From assembly GCA_003144275.1 (NCBI GenBank), contig NJBF01000025.1:1-32000 (forward strand): 32,000 nucleotides of DNA, given 5' to 3'. Each line of letters begins with the position of its first letter. The first letter of the stretch is position 1. Origin of the DNA: Candidatus Heimdallarchaeota archaeon B3_Heim. Its GTDB lineage: Archaea; Asgardarchaeota; Heimdallarchaeia; Hodarchaeales; Hodarchaeaceae. The position numbers and the translations under genes are program-made. Below are positions 16,001 to 23,752 of the stretch, piece by piece. The notes under the pieces were generated by a model. It searched no databases. It was not told the origin of the DNA and saw only the letters and a list, made by a program, of their open reading frames with translations.

Positions 16001-19000
16001 CAGAAGATTTTGGAGAAACCCCACTGATAATTGCTAATACAAAACCTTCTATAGTAAACGTGATTCTAACTGGCGGTAGAAATACCTCAGATCCTATTTA
16101 TCTCACCTATAGTTTTTTTGATTCTGATAACGATTCTGAAGGCTTACCGTTGATTCAATGGTTCAAACCAGGACTAATAAATGATCCAGATGCAAATAAT
16201 AATGAAACTCTTGGTACAGAGTTTTTTATTGCTGGAAATACTATTACTTTACAGATTAAAGCATTCGATGGGGAGGAGTATAGTGATTGGACACTTTCAA
16301 ACCTTTTCCCAAGCGGTTATGTTATAATCGGAAGTTCAACACCAACAATCGTAGGTGAACCCCTAATTGTAGGGCCAAATCAAAGCTTAAACTACAAAGC
16401 TGATTCACCCCTTATAGTGAATTATACTGCAAGTGATCCTGATCATGGTGAAAACACTGATTATGACATTGAATTAGATTCAGATGGTTACGTAATAGGT
16501 GCATTATATGAATGGTACAGGAATGATGTACTAGTTTCCGCGATTACAGGGCACACTGTCCCTGTTGATTACTTGAAAAAAGGAGATACTTGGTTGGTCA
16601 GAGTTAAACCAAGGGATAAAAGATCTACATATGGTACGTGGGAAAACTCCTCCACGATAACAATACAGAACGGTAATCCAGAGGTAACTGGGATTTGGTT
16701 TGAAACAACCTTAGTACCTACTGATATCGATATTCGTGTACAGTTTTCGTATTCAGATATTGATGGTGATTCAATCAATTTAGAAAATACTTCAATTCTC
16801 TGGTTCAAGAATGGAATCCTAATCTCAAGTGCAGTCAATCGGACGGTTTTGTCCAGTCAGCTGATTGGTGATGATTACTTTGTCGTTGTCTCTCTCAACA
16901 GTATCAACTACCAGAAAAATGACAATATTTCAGTTATTATAAATCCCTTTGATGGGACTGACTGGACGTTAGATAATGCTTCCACGATCACAATAAAAAT
17001 TCAGAATTCAATACCGACGGTATCTAATCCAAGTCTCTTAGCCCATAATCGAAATGGTACAATTATCTATACAACAGATAGAATAAATCTTACTTGGGTT
17101 TATTCTGATGTTGATGGTGACAATGAAAGCACACCCATTATTATTTGGGAGAGAAATGATGTTGCTCTACCTCTTTACGCTAACTCATTATTCATTCCAT
17201 CGACCGCCACGACAAAGGATGAAAAATGGGATGCAATTATTCGAGTGCATGATGGTACGAATTATAGCATTGAGTTATCAATAACTATTTTCATAACAAA
17301 CAGTATTCCTGTATTAGTAGACGTTGTCTTATGGAATAATAACGATCTATCAAATAATAGTTATTCCGATGGTAGTATCTCAATATCCTCCTATGATTTT
17401 ATCGATGCAGATTTTGATTCTGTTGACTCCAGCGCTAGTTTTATTCAATGGTATCTTAATGGTGTTTACGTTTCATTGTATGATAACCAAACAAGCATTT
17501 CAAGTAGTGAATTAATGAAAGGAGATTATTGGTACGCAGTGGTTCAAATTTTGGATTTAGGTGGAGTTATATGGTCAAATAATTATACTTCTCAGATTAT
17601 TTATGTTATTAACAAAGCTCCTGAAGTGACATCATTGATTTTAGTAGAGGAACCAGGTTATCTTATCGAAGATGAGAACATAACCATTGTTTTGACAATT
17701 ACTGACCCTGATTTCAATGATACAGATGCTTCTATTATAGAATGGATGATTAATGGAACCTTACAACCCCAATATACTAATCAACGAGAAATATCGTTTA
17801 TTGAGACAAATCCAGGTGATAACTGGACAATTATTATCACACCCTCAGATGGAATAGACAATGGAGCCATATTCACAAAATGGGTTATCATTGAAAGTCG
17901 GCCTCACATTCAAAATCTAACTGCAATAATTGAACAGGATCTTGATGGTCACTTTACATTCGGCTTGCAGGTGCTTGATGCCCGAAATCAAATCACTTCG
18001 GTAAAGTATGAGCTATTTCTCAATGGTACCGAGTCAGATATTGTCGATATTCTAAACTCTGCAAACACCACAGATTTTTGGATACTTGAATATTTTCTAT
18101 CAGATCCTGCTTATTATAACACAGAAGCAATGATAGAAATCAGGGCGACTTCTGATCTCGGTATTACCTCGATTAGAACTTTTTACTTCTCGATCATTGA
18201 TGGAGTAGCTCCTCGCGTATCAGGTGTAGGATTAGGAGCATGGTTTGTTAAGAATAGTAATGATCCAACTCAATTATCTTTCTTTGCTGATATTGAAGAG
18301 TACGGTGCAGGGGTAGCAAATGTTACTTTATATTATTACTATAAACAGGTGGATGGTGGAGAAGGATCATCAATGTTACAAGATTTCACCCCTGTTCTCA
18401 TGATTTTCAACGCGTCTGATGCTAACACCCTTACATATGCAGTAACAGTTCCCTATCCTCAAGATGACAAAGATTATGAGGTCTTGTATTGGGTCACAAC
18501 TCAAGACTTGGCTGGTAATAGCAATCCTGGAGCATTCGATATTAGAGATTATCCTGATCGAATAAATAACGAACGAATTATACAACCGACAGGAGGACTA
18601 CCTCCAGAGTTATTACTCCTTGCTGGCCTCGCAGTTTTCCTGATTTTTGTTGGTTCAGTCGTATACGTCCGTTTCATCCGAAAACCAGAAATAATTGGTT
18701 TAGATAAACCATTAGTAATGAAAGGGGTTCCCGATGTAGACGATGATGAAATCATTGAGAATATTGATAGACATACACTCGGAATTGTTGTCAGTTTCTT
18801 CGATCAGTTACATGGGCCTATTCCTATCATCGTCATTCCGGAGATGTTAAAAGATAATTATAGTAAATTAGTAGCACTTTCTGATCGCTCGTTCAGTGGT
18901 ACTGAGTTTAGTGATAATTTCGCAGGCGAGGAGTTTTCTTCATATGATTTTGGACTTGGCGAACAACTAAGGATAAGTGTCATTAGTTACGGATTTGCTT

Positions 19001-22732: not shown

Positions 22733-23752
22733 TTAATCAAATTTCAATATTCCACTCTCAATCTTGCTACCTGACATCACATTTGTTTGTATTGCAAGGT
22801 TTATTACTTCCTCAATAAATTTTAGAGAGAAGCCAACCTCTGAAGATAGTAACGTTAAATCAAGGTCTGATTTATTATTAAATGCTGTCAAAATCCGTTT
22901 TGCTAATAATCCTCTAATTTTTTTTACGGGTAAAGACAAGAACTGGTCTAGTTCTTCGAAATCTAGCTTTCCTGAAAGTCTAAGCCGATACTGAAGACCT
23001 AAATCCGATTGTGTTTCTAATCCAGACTTAGCGAGTAATTGCCTCCCAATAATTGGATCAGTTACCATTTCTAGCCGATAAAGGTTACCTCTAGGCATCC
23101 TCTTCTTAAATTCATCCACTCTTGCTCGTACTTTTGTTTTAACAAGGGGTGTTGGTTGATCACGAAAAATTACCTGAATTTGTGTCTTTTCTGATACAAC
23201 AAGTAAGATAGGTGCGGTATCTGGAATCATTGAAAGGTTTCCAAAAGCCTCAATTGTATTTGCCTCAGTTAAATAATACGCATCAATACCTGTATCTATT
23301 ATTTGAATATTTTGGTCAATTTTCTTTAAGATTTCTTCATCATAAAGATCTTTGTCACTTACAATATTATAAACGCGAAGAGTACGTTTTATCATGAGCT
23401 TAAGGAATTCAGTATACTTACTTATAGAATTTGAAGTTGTTATGACCCAGAAAAATATCATTCGACCGAATTGAGCAATCCTATTATCCATAGAATCTTT
23501 TGCTGATAAAGAAAACATGAAAGCTTCTGATATGTAGGGTTCTTTGGGAGTTGGAATTGGACCATAAGCACGTACTTCCCCTGGATGAAAGGGAGTGCTA
23601 GTACCAATTGCAGTCAATGTCTTTATTGCCATGGTAAAAGCTTCATCGTCAGCGAGAGGAGAAGAGTTGTAAATATTTGTGGGGCCTTCATCCTCGAAGA
23701 CTGTCACTATAAGTCCATCAGTTAATGCTTTAGTCCTATCTCTTTCCTTCAT
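22733..23752 (-). CDS. Longin/uDENN-like N-terminal domain protein, with possible gelsolin-like middle and PCI/wHTH-like C-terminal domains
   Basis: GLIVTVFEDEGPTNIYNSS matches the hydrophobic-strand FxxxGP start of longin/uDENN-like domains. C-terminal LDLTLLSSEVGFSLKFIEEVINLAIQTNVMSGSKI is wHTH/PCI-like. Confidence 0.6.
   Translation of the reverse strand: MKERDRTKALTDGLIVTVFEDEGPTNIYNSSPLADDEAFTMAIKTLTAIGTSTPFHPGEVRAYGPIPTPKEPYISEAFMFSLSAKDSMDNRIAQFGRMIFFWVITTSNSISKYTEFLKLMIKRTLRVYNIVSDKDLYDEEILKKIDQNIQIIDTGIDAYYLTEANTIEAFGNLSMIPDTAPILLVVSEKTQIQVIFRDQPTPLVKTKVRARVDEFKKRMPRGNLYRLEMVTDPIIGRQLLAKSGLETQSDLGLQYRLRLSGKLDFEELDQFLSLPVKKIRGLLAKRILTAFNNKSDLDLTLLSSEVGFSLKFIEEVINLAIQTNVMSGSKIESGILKFD

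What the first reader, a model, noticed from the sequence alone, without database searches (positions are those of the whole stretch)
18670..23752. Mirror-symmetric longin -> <- Rag | Rag -> <- longin block: a possible proto Rag-folliculin/GATOR signalling locus
Seen: receptor-longin (+) ends 28 nt from Rag-like 1 (-); Rag-like 1 and 2 are divergent; Rag-like 2 (+) ends 16 nt from longin-like 2 (-). Established: eukaryotic Rags act as a pair, regulated by longin-heterodimer GAPs (FLCN-FNIP, NPRL2-NPRL3). The four genes supply two Rag G-domains, a roadblock and two longins. Inference: a membrane-anchored, TOR-independent nutrient or contact sensing switch. Caveat: convergent genes are not an operon, and Asgard genomes have many such domains, so adjacency could be chance.
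Basis: partly seen in the sequence, partly recalled or inferred. Interest (0 to 1): 0.85.

Follow-up and report, generated by a model that had tools for sequence, protein, structure and literature searches.

The report
Surface receptor wired to Rag GTPases
In a Hodarchaeales (Asgard) archaeon, two Rag-type GTPase genes lie between a giant surface receptor whose inner tail resembles the catalytic part of folliculin and a second folliculin-like protein; this wiring is kept across the archaeal class, giving a testable forerunner of the eukaryotic Rag switch.

Summary
In order, the window holds four genes. The first is a 3,075-aa type-I surface protein whose ~195-aa cytoplasmic tail folds as a folliculin/SMCR8/NPRL2-type longin, with a GP motif and an invariant Arg2994. 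Next come a 735-aa and a ~300-aa Gtr1/RagA-family GTPase, transcribed divergently. Last is a 339-aa longin + gelsolin-like + winged-helix protein. The gaps are 28 and 16 nt, as stated.

The arrangement is not chance:
- The Rag pair with the second longin or the receptor recurs across the genus at 35-50% protein identity.
- A receptor-tail/Rag/Rag triad recurs in two other families of the class.
- All five Rag genes of this genome lie in two longin-containing clusters (0 of 20,000 shuffles).
- In other Asgard families the nearest relatives of the tail longin are fused to a Rag G domain.

A tail-Rag1 complex prediction gave only weak support. The most likely reading is a membrane-tethered Rag switch, with no TOR-type kinase found, whose longins act as GAP-like regulators. 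Mechanism and signal are inferred. Published work knows Asgard Rags and GP-motif longins but calls their pairing an open question.

The scan already reported this receptor-Rag theme on other genomes. This window adds the second longin, the pairing specificity and a second operon.

The parts
10039..18609 (+). Ectodomain of the giant type-I surface protein (P0004, residues 1-2857): N-terminal signal/anchor, three Laminin_G_3 domains, two DUF2341 domains and many Ig-like repeats
   Evidence: Translation. Pfam Laminin_G_3 E 2.9e-42 and DUF2341 E 1.9e-24.
18610..18669 (+). Single transmembrane helix (residues 2858-2877), followed by the basic stretch RFIRK, which places the tail in the cytoplasm
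   Evidence: Read directly from the translation. The topology follows the positive-inside rule (inference).
18670..19266 (+). Cytoplasmic longin tail (residues 2878-3075) of folliculin/SMCR8/NPRL2 type. The GP motif is G2926-P2927 (nt 18814-18819), just before strand 2. Invariant Arg2994 (nt 19018-19020) sits in a P-E-A-R-G loop between strands 4 and 5
   Evidence: Model pLDDT 90.7, pTM 0.86. VIA-align Z is 14.1 to a Loki longin and 11.5-9.4 to FLCN-complex, C9orf72-SMCR8, Lst4, GATOR1 and SEA chains; other longins score 8.0 or less. Foldseek E 6.8e-5 to 6ulg_N. G49, P50 and R117 are invariant in 62 tails.
19295..21502 (-). Rag-like 1 (P0001, 735 aa). Domains: Gtr1/RagA G domain, residues 1-205 (nt 20888-21502); Pro/Thr-rich linker; GatE-C-terminal-like helical domain, residues 347-473 (nt 20084-20464); internally duplicated C-terminal module, residues 478-735 (nt 19298-20071)
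   Evidence: Pfam Gtr1_RagA E 1.4e-30. P-loop, DxxGQ and HKxD are invariant in 50 orthologues. The GatE model is hit by 42 of 50 orthologues, best E 3.2e-12. Tandem duplication: hhalign 98.9%, E 3.8e-17.
21503..21819 (.). AT-rich divergent spacer shared by the two Rag genes (278 nt to the GTG at 21781, 317 nt to the ATG at 21820). Presumed bidirectional promoter region
   Evidence: Sequence. The divergent long-Rag/short-Rag pair recurs in 15 loci of the genus. Promoter function is inferred.
21781..22716 (+). Rag-like 2 (P0002, 311-aa ORF, likely 298 aa from the ATG at 21820): Gtr1/RagA G domain plus C-terminal roadblock-type domain (ORF residues ~200-311, nt 22378-22713)
   Evidence: Pfam Gtr1_RagA E 7.8e-37. 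The family profile aligns end to end with yeast Gtr1, E 2.7e-38. G motifs are invariant in 58 orthologues.
22733..23752 (-). Second longin protein (P0003, 339 aa). Domains: longin, residues 6-155 (nt 23288-23737), with GP motif G23-P24 (nt 23681-23686) and invariant R91 (nt 23480-23482); gelsolin-like domain, residues 154-250; winged helix, residues 265-339
   Evidence: Model pLDDT 81. VIA-align Z: longin 10.5-9.8 (8yqg, Lst4, FLCN complex, C9orf72-SMCR8); gelsolin-like 9.3 (Thor ProGel); winged helix 9.6 (UFL1/DDRGK1). Conservation in 42 orthologues. GP and D-x-R-I are kept in all paralogues.

Best explanation
The four genes form one working module: a Rag-type GTPase switch tethered to a cell-surface receptor.

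Shown:
- Two Gtr1/RagA-family GTPases with intact G motifs are encoded as a conserved divergent pair.
- The giant type-I surface protein ends in the cytoplasm in a folliculin/SMCR8/NPRL2-type longin, with the GP motif before strand 2 and an invariant Arg in the strand 4-5 loop.
- A soluble protein carries a second longin of the same kind.
- The gene links 'tail next to the long Rag' and 'second longin next to the short Rag' recur independently.

Inferred:
- Rag1 and Rag2 pair up.
- The receptor tail holds the pair at the membrane and acts on Rag1 as a GAP-like regulator through Arg2994.
- The second longin does the same for Rag2. This would parallel eukaryotes, where GATOR1 acts on RagA and folliculin on RagC.
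- Events at the variable ectodomain (ligand or contact, clustering) would change tail-Rag engagement, and so the nucleotide state of the pair.

The output is unknown. No TOR-type kinase was found in this genome.
For: Families and folds.

Motif conservation:
- G49, P50 and R117 are invariant in 62 tails that share as little as 20-30% identity.
- G23 and P24 are nearly invariant, and R91 invariant, in 42 orthologues and across paralogues.
- The GP motif is reported as specific to GAP-type longins and present in Heimdall longins (PMC12290439).

Synteny within the genus:
- The second longin lies next to a Rag2-type gene in 17 of 20 loci.
- The long/short Rag pair is divergent in 15 loci.
- A tail-bearing receptor lies next to the long Rag in 7 of those 15.

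Synteny at class level:
- The order receptor tail, long Rag, then a convergent ~407-aa Rag occurs in all five family-f4 loci fetched and in the f3 locus fetched with them.
- It occurs in 12 of 20 further tail loci, 19 of them in f3.

Own genome:
- There are exactly five strong Rag genes, all in two longin-bearing clusters.
- 0 of 20,000 shuffles match the adjacency.
- The second cluster is co-directional: Rag, pseudo-Rag, longin, Rag, with gaps of 10-21 nt. It is kept in 12 of 12 genomes fetched.

Fusion evidence: in other Asgard families, 468-480-aa proteins join a longin to a Gtr1/RagA G domain. The longin is hit by both the tail profile (E 1e-13 to 1e-15) and the second-longin profile (E about 1e-6), and it keeps the EGP and (E/S/N)-A-R-G motifs.

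Complex prediction, tail + Rag1 G domain + GTP + Mg: weak support.
- ipSAE 0.41 (runs 0.41, 0.36, 0.42); best of 3 controls 0.01.
- The mark was reached by 58 of 80 solved complexes and 2 of 110 mismatched pairs. At 0.60 or under it was reached by only 7 of those 80 and by both mismatches that passed.
- The runs share at least 83% of contacts; partner pLDDT is at least 83.
- My own alignments and the ligands differ from the calibration.
Against: - No sequence-level link to eukaryotic GAP longins: the tail profile finds nothing relevant in PDB sequences. The assignment rests on predicted folds and short motifs.
- For the second longin the GAP-type matches (Z 9.8-10.1) barely exceed adaptor sigma/mu longins (Z 9.0-9.5).
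- That Arg2994 is structurally equivalent to FLCN R164 or SMCR8 R147 was not checked at coordinate level.
- Neither protein has the DENN domain of FLCN, FNIP or SMCR8.
- Both Rags are RagA/Gtr1-like.
- The Rag1 C-terminus shows no detectable roadblock, so pairing with Rag2 is unproven.
- Many tail-bearing receptors are not next to Rag genes. Examples are three in tandem on contig C87 of this genome and 8 of the 20 tail loci. Tails may therefore have other clients.
- In this genus the longin genes converge on the Rag genes, so they are not co-transcribed.
- The complex score is a weak pass only.
- There is no biochemical or expression evidence.
Confidence: 0.55

Rival explanations
1. The longins are anchors or platforms, not GAPs. 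The receptor tail would recruit the Rag pair to the membrane, as Ragulator tethers Rags, or as the SRX longin-like domain of SR-alpha binds GTP-bound SR-beta. Alternatively it would act as an exchange-factor platform like the TRAPP, Mon1-Ccz1 or DENN longins.
For: - Most longin-GTPase pairs known in eukaryotes are GEF or scaffold interactions (stated in PMC12290439).
- The Rag proteins show no lipidation signal in their translations, while the tail is membrane-tethered.
- The G domains also score on the SRPRB Pfam model (E 1e-5 to 3e-8).
- In longin-Rag fusions the longin sits in cis, which suits a regulatory or docking role as well as catalysis.
Against: - The tail's eight best structural matches are one Asgard longin and seven chains of GAP-longin complexes. 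GEF and scaffold longins score lower (Z 8.0 or less against 9.4-14.1).
- The GP motif and an invariant loop Arg are the marks reported for GAP longins and are absent from non-GAP ones (PMC12290439).
- Gtr1_RagA scores far exceed SRPRB scores.
- Anchoring and GAP action are not mutually exclusive.
Confidence: 0.25
2. The tail longin serves the receptor itself, in sorting, secretion or turnover of giant surface proteins, as SNARE or adaptor longins do. The Rag genes lie nearby because they belong to the same membrane-traffic process, without direct tail-Rag contact.
For: - The tail family sits at the end of very diverse giant ectodomains: 149 clusters at 50% identity, in proteins up to 5,809 aa.
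- Many such genes have no Rag neighbour.
Against: - The nearest relatives of the tail longin outside the class are physically fused to Rag G domains.
- The Rag gene directly follows the tail-encoding end of the receptor gene in three families.
- SNARE and adaptor longins are weaker structural matches.
- The weak-pass complex score of 0.41 stands against controls of 0.01 or less (for the calibration counts see the best explanation).
Confidence: 0.08
3. The adjacency is chance in a genome rich in small GTPases and longin domains, with no functional link.
For: - The genes are convergent, not an operon.
- Asgard genomes hold dozens of such domains. Tran et al. found that MK-D1 GTPases are generally not in operons with longin or roadblock genes (PMC10933270).
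Against: - Only five genes of this genome are true Rag-family members, and all lie in longin-bearing clusters.
- 0 of 20,000 shuffles reach the observed adjacency.
- The arrangement is kept at 35-50% protein identity in the genus, and in other families of the class.
- Fusion proteins exist.
Confidence: 0.02

Closest known systems
Eukaryotic longin-domain GAP complexes: FLCN-FNIP (yeast Lst7-Lst4) for RagC/D, GATOR1 NPRL2-NPRL3 for RagA/B, and C9orf72-SMCR8 for Arf
   Same: - Longin fold.
- GP motif before strand 2.
- A conserved loop arginine.
- Genomic or physical coupling to Rag-family GTPases.
- Two longins for two Rags.
- These are the top structural matches.
   Different: - One longin is the cytoplasmic tail of a 3,075-aa single-pass surface protein.
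- There is no DENN domain; the second longin carries a gelsolin-like and a winged-helix domain instead.
- No sequence-level similarity was detectable.
- Longin heterodimerisation and GAP activity are untested.
- No TOR-type kinase was found.
Eukaryotic Rag/Gtr heterodimers (RagA/B-RagC/D; Gtr1-Gtr2)
   Same: - Gtr1_RagA family, with the HKxD G4 motif.
- Rag2 has the full Gtr1 architecture, including the C-terminal roadblock-type domain.
- The genes come as a conserved pair of diverged paralogues.
   Different: - Both members are RagA/Gtr1-like.
- Rag1 carries a GatE-like helical domain and a duplicated module of unknown fold in place of a recognisable roadblock.
- Dimerisation was not shown.
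Asgard longin-Rag fusion GTPases and GP-motif 'Folliculin/SMCR8 longin' proteins (Liu et al., preprint 10.1101/2020.10.19.343400; Tran et al., PMC10933270; PMC12290439)
   Same: - The same longin class with the same GP and A-R-G motifs.
- The same GTPase family.
- Fusion proteins found here link the tail family and the second-longin family.
   Different: - Here the longin and the Rag are separate genes, and one longin is receptor-borne.
- PMC12290439 leaves open which GTPase these longins serve.
- Tran et al. state that genome layout gives no pairing in MK-D1.
Asgard LAMTOR1-like + Rab-like GTPase + DENN operon (Liu et al., preprint 10.1101/2020.10.19.343400)
   Same: It is a conserved Asgard neighbourhood that couples a small GTPase with FLCN-related regulators.
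   Different: - According to its authors that operon holds a GTPase that is not of the Rag family, plus a DENN protein.
- This module holds true Rag-family GTPases, no DENN domain, and a transmembrane receptor.
Bacterial MglA-MglB (Ras-like GTPase with a roadblock-dimer GAP)
   Same: It is a prokaryotic small GTPase regulated by a protein of the roadblock/longin superfamily and encoded next to it.
   Different: - MglB is a roadblock fold, not a GP-motif longin, and supplies no arginine finger (established knowledge, recalled).
- MglB has no receptor fusion.
- MglA is not a Rag-family GTPase.

Membership tests
Rag/Gtr GTPase family | G domain matching Pfam Gtr1_RagA above the curated cut-off | tested here: met
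   Rag1 scores 106.9 bits and Rag2 127.3 bits, against a cut-off of 22. All 50 Rag1 orthologues match.
Rag/Gtr GTPase family | Intact nucleotide-binding motifs: P-loop, DxxGQ, and HKxD in place of NKxD | tested here: met
   Rag1 has GLSEAGKT, DLGGQ and HKND. Rag2 has GLGASGKS, DCGGQ and HKID. These columns are invariant in the alignments.
Rag/Gtr GTPase family | C-terminal roadblock-type dimerisation domain | tested here: inconclusive
   Rag2 meets this at sequence level: its profile aligns with Gtr1 through the C-terminal domain. In Rag1 no similarity to the Rag2 C-terminal domain or to longins was found by hhalign, and its fold was not predicted.
Rag/Gtr GTPase family | Obligate heterodimer of one RagA/Gtr1-type and one RagC/Gtr2-type paralogue | tested here: not met
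   Both are closer to RagA/Gtr1. For Rag2 the E-values are 1.5e-26 against 1.1e-11; for Rag1 they are 9.4e-20 against 6.5e-6. Pairing as such was not tested; only the conserved divergent gene pair was seen.
GAP-type longins (FLCN, SMCR8, C9orf72, NPRL2) | Longin fold: two strands, helix, three strands, helix | tested here: met
   The predicted secondary-structure order and the longin matches fit for both the tail and the second longin.
GAP-type longins (FLCN, SMCR8, C9orf72, NPRL2) | GP motif at the end of the loop before strand 2, as defined in PMC12290439 | tested here: met
   In the tail, G49-P50 lie at the start of strand 2 (residues 49-56) and are invariant in 62 sequences. In the second longin, G23-P24 lie at the start of strand 2 (residues 23-29), are at least 90% conserved, and are kept in all paralogues.
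GAP-type longins (FLCN, SMCR8, C9orf72, NPRL2) | Catalytic arginine finger next to the GP motif | tested here: inconclusive
   An invariant Arg lies in the strand 4-5 loop of both: tail R117 (= Arg2994) in P-E-A-R-G, and second-longin R91, with R97 also conserved.
GAP-type longins (FLCN, SMCR8, C9orf72, NPRL2) | Closest structural relatives are GAP longins rather than SNARE, adaptor or TRAPP longins | tested here: inconclusive
   Met for the tail: its top eight matches are one Asgard longin plus seven GAP-complex chains (Z 14.1-9.4), and the rest score 8.0 or less. Not decisive for the second longin: GAP longins score 9.8-10.1 and AP sigma/mu longins 9.0-9.5.
FLCN/FNIP/SMCR8 architecture | Longin followed by a DENN domain | tested here: not met
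   The tail is a longin plus terminal helices only. The second longin is followed by a gelsolin-like domain and a winged helix.
GAP-type longins (FLCN, SMCR8, C9orf72, NPRL2) | Stimulation of GTP hydrolysis on the client GTPase | not testable with these tools
   This needs purified proteins. The complex prediction is only a weak pass: 0.41 against a best control of 0.01. The mark was reached by 58 of 80 solved complexes and 2 of 110 mismatched pairs, but at 0.60 or under by only 7 of those 80 and by both mismatches that passed.
Ragulator/LAMTOR membrane anchor | Roadblock-fold subunits that tether Rags to a membrane | tested here: inconclusive
   The tail is membrane-tethered, but its best matches are longins. 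Roadblock structures score Z 6.0-6.2. The role may be analogous, but membership is not supported.

The most novel reading that the evidence does not exclude
The module is a complete outside-in signalling device with two GAP-type longins for two Rags. The receptor ectodomain would sense contact or ligand. The GatE-like helical domain of Rag1 would read tRNA or aminoacylation state, a prokaryotic form of amino-acid sensing by Rags. The gelsolin-like domain of the second longin would pass the state of the switch to the actin cytoskeleton, or to the tubulin/FtsZ-family protein that takes the receptor's place in some relatives. On this reading the Rag-folliculin/GATOR logic arose at the plasma membrane of the archaeal ancestor, before lysosomes and TOR.
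Probability: 0.12. Interest if true: 0.92.

Novelty: new variant of a known kind. Interest (0 to 1): 0.8.

Why it matters
Eukaryotes control growth through Rag GTPases, which are switched by the longin GAP complexes folliculin and GATOR1. How and where this logic arose is unknown.

Published work records Rag-family GTPases and GP-motif 'folliculin/SMCR8-type' longins in Asgard archaea. It also states that their client GTPase is an open question (PMC12290439), and that gene order does not pair GTPases with regulators in the cultured Lokiarchaeon (PMC10933270).

This locus and its relatives supply that pairing. Specific longins are tied to specific Rag genes by synteny conserved at class level, by an operon, and by gene fusions. 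One longin sits on a giant surface receptor.

That gives named constructs and point mutants for a direct biochemical test. It also suggests that the Rag switch began as a membrane-receptor device without TOR.

Tried and rejected
Sequence and profile searches that found nothing:
- hhalign of the tail longin against the second longin found no significant match. The two families are linked only through fold and through the fusion proteins that both profiles hit.
- A profile search of the tail family against PDB sequences found nothing relevant.
- Pfam on the isolated sub-domains found nothing above noise. The sub-domains were the Rag2 C-terminal domain, the two halves of the Rag1 C-terminus, the Rag1 middle domain, and the gelsolin-like and winged-helix parts.

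The Rag1 C-terminal module stays unassigned:
- The ESM Atlas gave no feature hit, only TM scores of 0.33 or less, and the Atlas model is poor.
- hhalign against the Rag2 C-terminal domain and against both longins was negative.

The Rag1 middle domain:
- Pfam GatB_Yqey was not hit in any of 50 orthologues.
- A profile of the domain did not find the genome's own GatE or GatB.
- The GatE likeness therefore rests on NCBIfam alone.
- The long Rags of families f3 and f4 show no GatE-like hit.

Other checks:
- The acetyl-CoA genes to the right of the second longin are syntenic only in the three closest genomes, so they are not part of the module.
- A tree of the G domains (FastTree, midpoint root, supports not examined) did not clearly place the f3/f4 long Rags with Rag1. 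I make no orthology claim.
- RNA-library contigs gave no cover of the second longin gene. The pieces that do cover the tail, Rag1 and Rag2 may be DNA carry-over, so expression is not shown.
- Runs holding the stretch all had small shares. I make no habitat claim beyond the labels of the contigs laid.
- The supplement of PMC12290439 is not held, so I could not check whether its reference Heimdall longins are receptor tails.

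
Full report
**What is there.** The stretch holds four genes in the stated order and orientation.
- P0004, 10039-19266 (+), is a 3,075-aa protein. It has an N-terminal signal/anchor, Laminin_G_3, DUF2341 and Ig-like repeats, one transmembrane helix (residues 2858-2877), and a ~195-aa cytoplasmic tail.
- P0001, 19295-21502 (-), starts 28 nt after the stop of P0004 and runs towards it.
- P0002, 21781-22716 (+), probably starts at the ATG at 21820, since orthologues are 298-303 aa. 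It is divergent from P0001.
- P0003, 22733-23752 (-), converges on P0002 with a 16-nt gap.

Names attached to homologues place the organism in Hodarchaeales, class Heimdallarchaeia.

**The GTPases.** Both pass Pfam Gtr1_RagA by a wide margin. Both keep the P-loop, DxxGQ and the Rag-typical HKxD motifs, which are invariant across 50 and 58 orthologues.

The Rag2 family profile aligns with yeast Gtr1 from end to end, C-terminal domain included (E 2.7e-38). Rag2 is therefore a canonical Rag.

Rag1 differs after its G domain:
- a Pro/Thr-rich linker;
- a helical domain that 42 of 50 orthologues match to the C-terminal part of GatE (best E 3.2e-12);
- an internally duplicated ~250-aa module (hhalign 98.9%) that no tool could assign.

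Both proteins resemble RagA/Gtr1 far more than RagC/Gtr2. They are a lineage-specific pair, not RagA/RagC orthologues.

**The longins.** The tail was folded with 62 homologous tails and gave a confident model (pLDDT 90.7, pTM 0.86) with longin topology.
- Its eight best PDB matches by VIA-align are an Asgard longin (Z 14.1) and then chains of the folliculin complex, C9orf72-SMCR8, Lst4, GATOR1 and the SEA complex (Z 11.5-9.4). All other longins score 8.0 or less.
- Foldseek ranks the FLCN-FNIP2-Rag-Ragulator and active-FLCN-GAP entries first.
- In Swiss-Prot models the leading matches are SMCR8, C9orf72, Lst7, DENND6 and NPRL2.
- G49-P50 lie at the start of strand 2 and R117 (Arg2994) lies in a P-E-A-R-G loop between strands 4 and 5. 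All are invariant.

PMC12290439 defines exactly this GP motif as specific to GAP-type longins, and notes it with an arginine finger in Heimdall longins.

P0003 (model pLDDT 81) has three domains:
- a longin, residues 6-155 (Z 10.5-9.8 to the same group, though adaptor longins follow closely);
- a gelsolin-like domain, residues 154-250 (Z 9.3 to Thorarchaeota ProGel);
- a winged helix, residues 265-339 (Z 9.6).

Its GP motif (G23-P24) and loop Arg (R91) are conserved in orthologues and in all paralogues. Neither protein has a DENN domain, and neither shows sequence-level similarity to eukaryotic proteins.

**Is the adjacency meaningful?**

*Own genome.* Only five genes are true Rag-family members. 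Two are here and three lie on contig C87. The C87 genes form a tight co-directional cluster of Rag, degenerate Rag-like, P0003-type longin and Rag, with gaps of 10-21 nt. So 3 of 10 longin/tail genes touch a Rag gene, and no shuffle out of 20,000 reaches that figure.

*Same genus.*
- That operon is kept in 12 of 12 genomes fetched, with pseudo-Rag identity down to 48%.
- Coordinates show it in about 20 of 21 genomes.
- P0003-type genes lie next to a Rag2-type gene in 17 of 20 loci.
- The long/short Rag pair is divergent in 15 loci, and a tail-bearing receptor abuts the long Rag in 7 of them. Two of those seven lack P0003.

The links 'tail with long Rag' and 'second longin with short Rag' therefore recur separately.

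*Other families of the class.* The order 'giant protein with this tail, long Rag, then a convergent ~407-aa Rag' occurs in all five f4 loci fetched and in the f3 locus fetched with them. It also occurs in 12 of 20 further tail loci, 19 of them in f3. A family of the same order has Rag, Rag and a P0003-like gene in one direction.

*Outside the class.* The tail profile finds 468-480-aa proteins in which a longin is fused to a Gtr1/RagA G domain. That longin carries EGP and (E/S/N)-A-R-G motifs and is also hit by the P0003 longin profile. This is Rosetta-stone evidence that this longin class works on Rag G domains. It also ties the two longin families together.

**Direct test of contact.** One complex job was run with the tail, Rag1 residues 1-205, GTP and Mg. 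It gave weak support:
- ipSAE 0.41 (runs 0.41, 0.36, 0.42), against 0.01 for the best of three controls;
- the mark was reached by 58 of 80 solved complexes and 2 of 110 mismatched pairs, but at 0.60 or under by only 7 of those 80 and by both mismatches that passed;
- the runs share at least 83% of contacts, and partner pLDDT is at least 83;
- my own alignments and the ligands differ from the calibration.

I count this as a small addition only.

**Mechanism.** I think the module is a receptor-tethered Rag switch. The conserved divergent pair suggests that Rag1 and Rag2 act together. The tail would dock and regulate Rag1, and P0003 would regulate Rag2. The GP motif and the invariant loop Arg make GAP action the most likely mode, which parallels the two GAP complexes for the two Rags in eukaryotes.

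The tail family sits at the end of very varied giant ectodomains (149 clusters). That fits interchangeable sensors feeding one cytoplasmic device.

No PI3K/TOR-type kinase was found in the 94%-complete genome. The output is unknown.

The main rival is that the longins are anchors or exchange platforms rather than GAPs. Chance adjacency is effectively excluded.

**Prior knowledge.**
- Liu et al. (preprint 10.1101/2020.10.19.343400) described longin-Rag fusions and a LAMTOR1-like + Rab-like + DENN operon. They stressed that its GTPase is not a Rag.
- Tran et al. (PMC10933270) found no general operon pairing in MK-D1.
- PMC12290439 leaves the client of GP-motif longins open.
- I found no paper in the library that reports a receptor-borne GAP-type longin next to Rag genes. 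Subscription journals are not covered.

Within this scan the receptor-tail-plus-Rag theme has already been reported on other genomes. Those notes agree with what I tested here, but they are not independent evidence.

This window adds four things: the second longin protein with its gelsolin-like and winged-helix domains, the separate recurrence of the two longin-Rag links, the second operon, and the GatE-like domain of Rag1.

**Expression.** Contigs of one metatranscriptomic library match short pieces of the tail, Rag1 and Rag2 at 95-100% identity. DNA carry-over cannot be excluded, so this is at most a hint.

Noticed in passing
window 20084-20464 (-), Rag1 residues 347-473: A helical domain inside the long Rag matches the C-terminal part of GatE, the archaeal tRNA-dependent amidotransferase subunit. 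The match holds in 42 of 50 orthologues (best E 3.2e-12). Pfam GatB_Yqey is not hit, and the f3/f4 long Rags lack the domain. A tRNA-binding type of domain in a Rag GTPase would be a striking link to amino-acid status.
   Followed up: partly
L037 (own genome, contig C87 80702-90694); L037 coordinates 4703-14694: This is a second conserved Rag cluster. The order is: divergent Rag (303 aa), MFS transporter, class-I Trp/Tyr-type tRNA synthetase, Rag (334 aa), degenerate Rag-like protein (314 aa, P-loop ending in D, no DxxG), P0003-type longin (271 aa), Rag (310 aa), unknown 183-aa protein, M50 protease. It is kept in 12 of 12 same-genus genomes fetched, though the synthetase is present in only some.
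   Followed up: partly
own genome, contig C87 8747-42803 (-): Three tandem giant genes of 993, 1,537 and 8,821 aa all end in the same longin tail family. None has a Rag neighbour, so tails may have clients encoded elsewhere.
   Followed up: no
L026 3-4328, L028 14420-19000, L031 1-4553 (same-genus genomes): In three relatives the place next to the long Rag, held by the receptor in the window, is taken by a 440-aa tubulin/FtsZ-family protein (Pfam Tubulin E 6.7e-20) plus a ~1,000-aa protein of no known family.
   Followed up: partly
L093 1433-6555, L094 1262-6333, L095 1515-6173 (another Asgard family): Longin-Rag fusion proteins of 470-480 aa lie about 3 kb from a separate 314-aa Rag. In L093, the only locus scanned for it, they also lie near a zinc-ribbon + Roadblock/LC7 protein. 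This may be a Ragulator-like trio in another class.
   Followed up: partly
A P0003-type longin and a Rag lie beside it. The cause is either mis-binning or transfer.
   Followed up: no
window 23918-29176 (-): Three acetyl-CoA-related genes lie here: AAA_26+DRTGG, an ADP-forming acetyl-CoA synthetase-like gene, and an acetyl-CoA hydrolase/transferase fused to GNAT. They follow the second longin on the same strand but are syntenic only in the three closest genomes.
   Followed up: yes
window 4144-9411 (-) and 29311-30408 (-): The first is another giant surface protein (1,755 aa, weak CBM/PKD-like hits) without the longin tail. The second is a 365-aa protein with a weak prokaryotic RING-finger hit (E 0.0026).
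   Followed up: no
window 18630-22333: Short contigs of one sediment metatranscriptome library match the tail, Rag1 and Rag2 with 0-8 mismatches per 151 nt. Related marine-sediment and cold-seep DNA contigs carry the same gene junctions at about 92-97% identity.
   Followed up: partly
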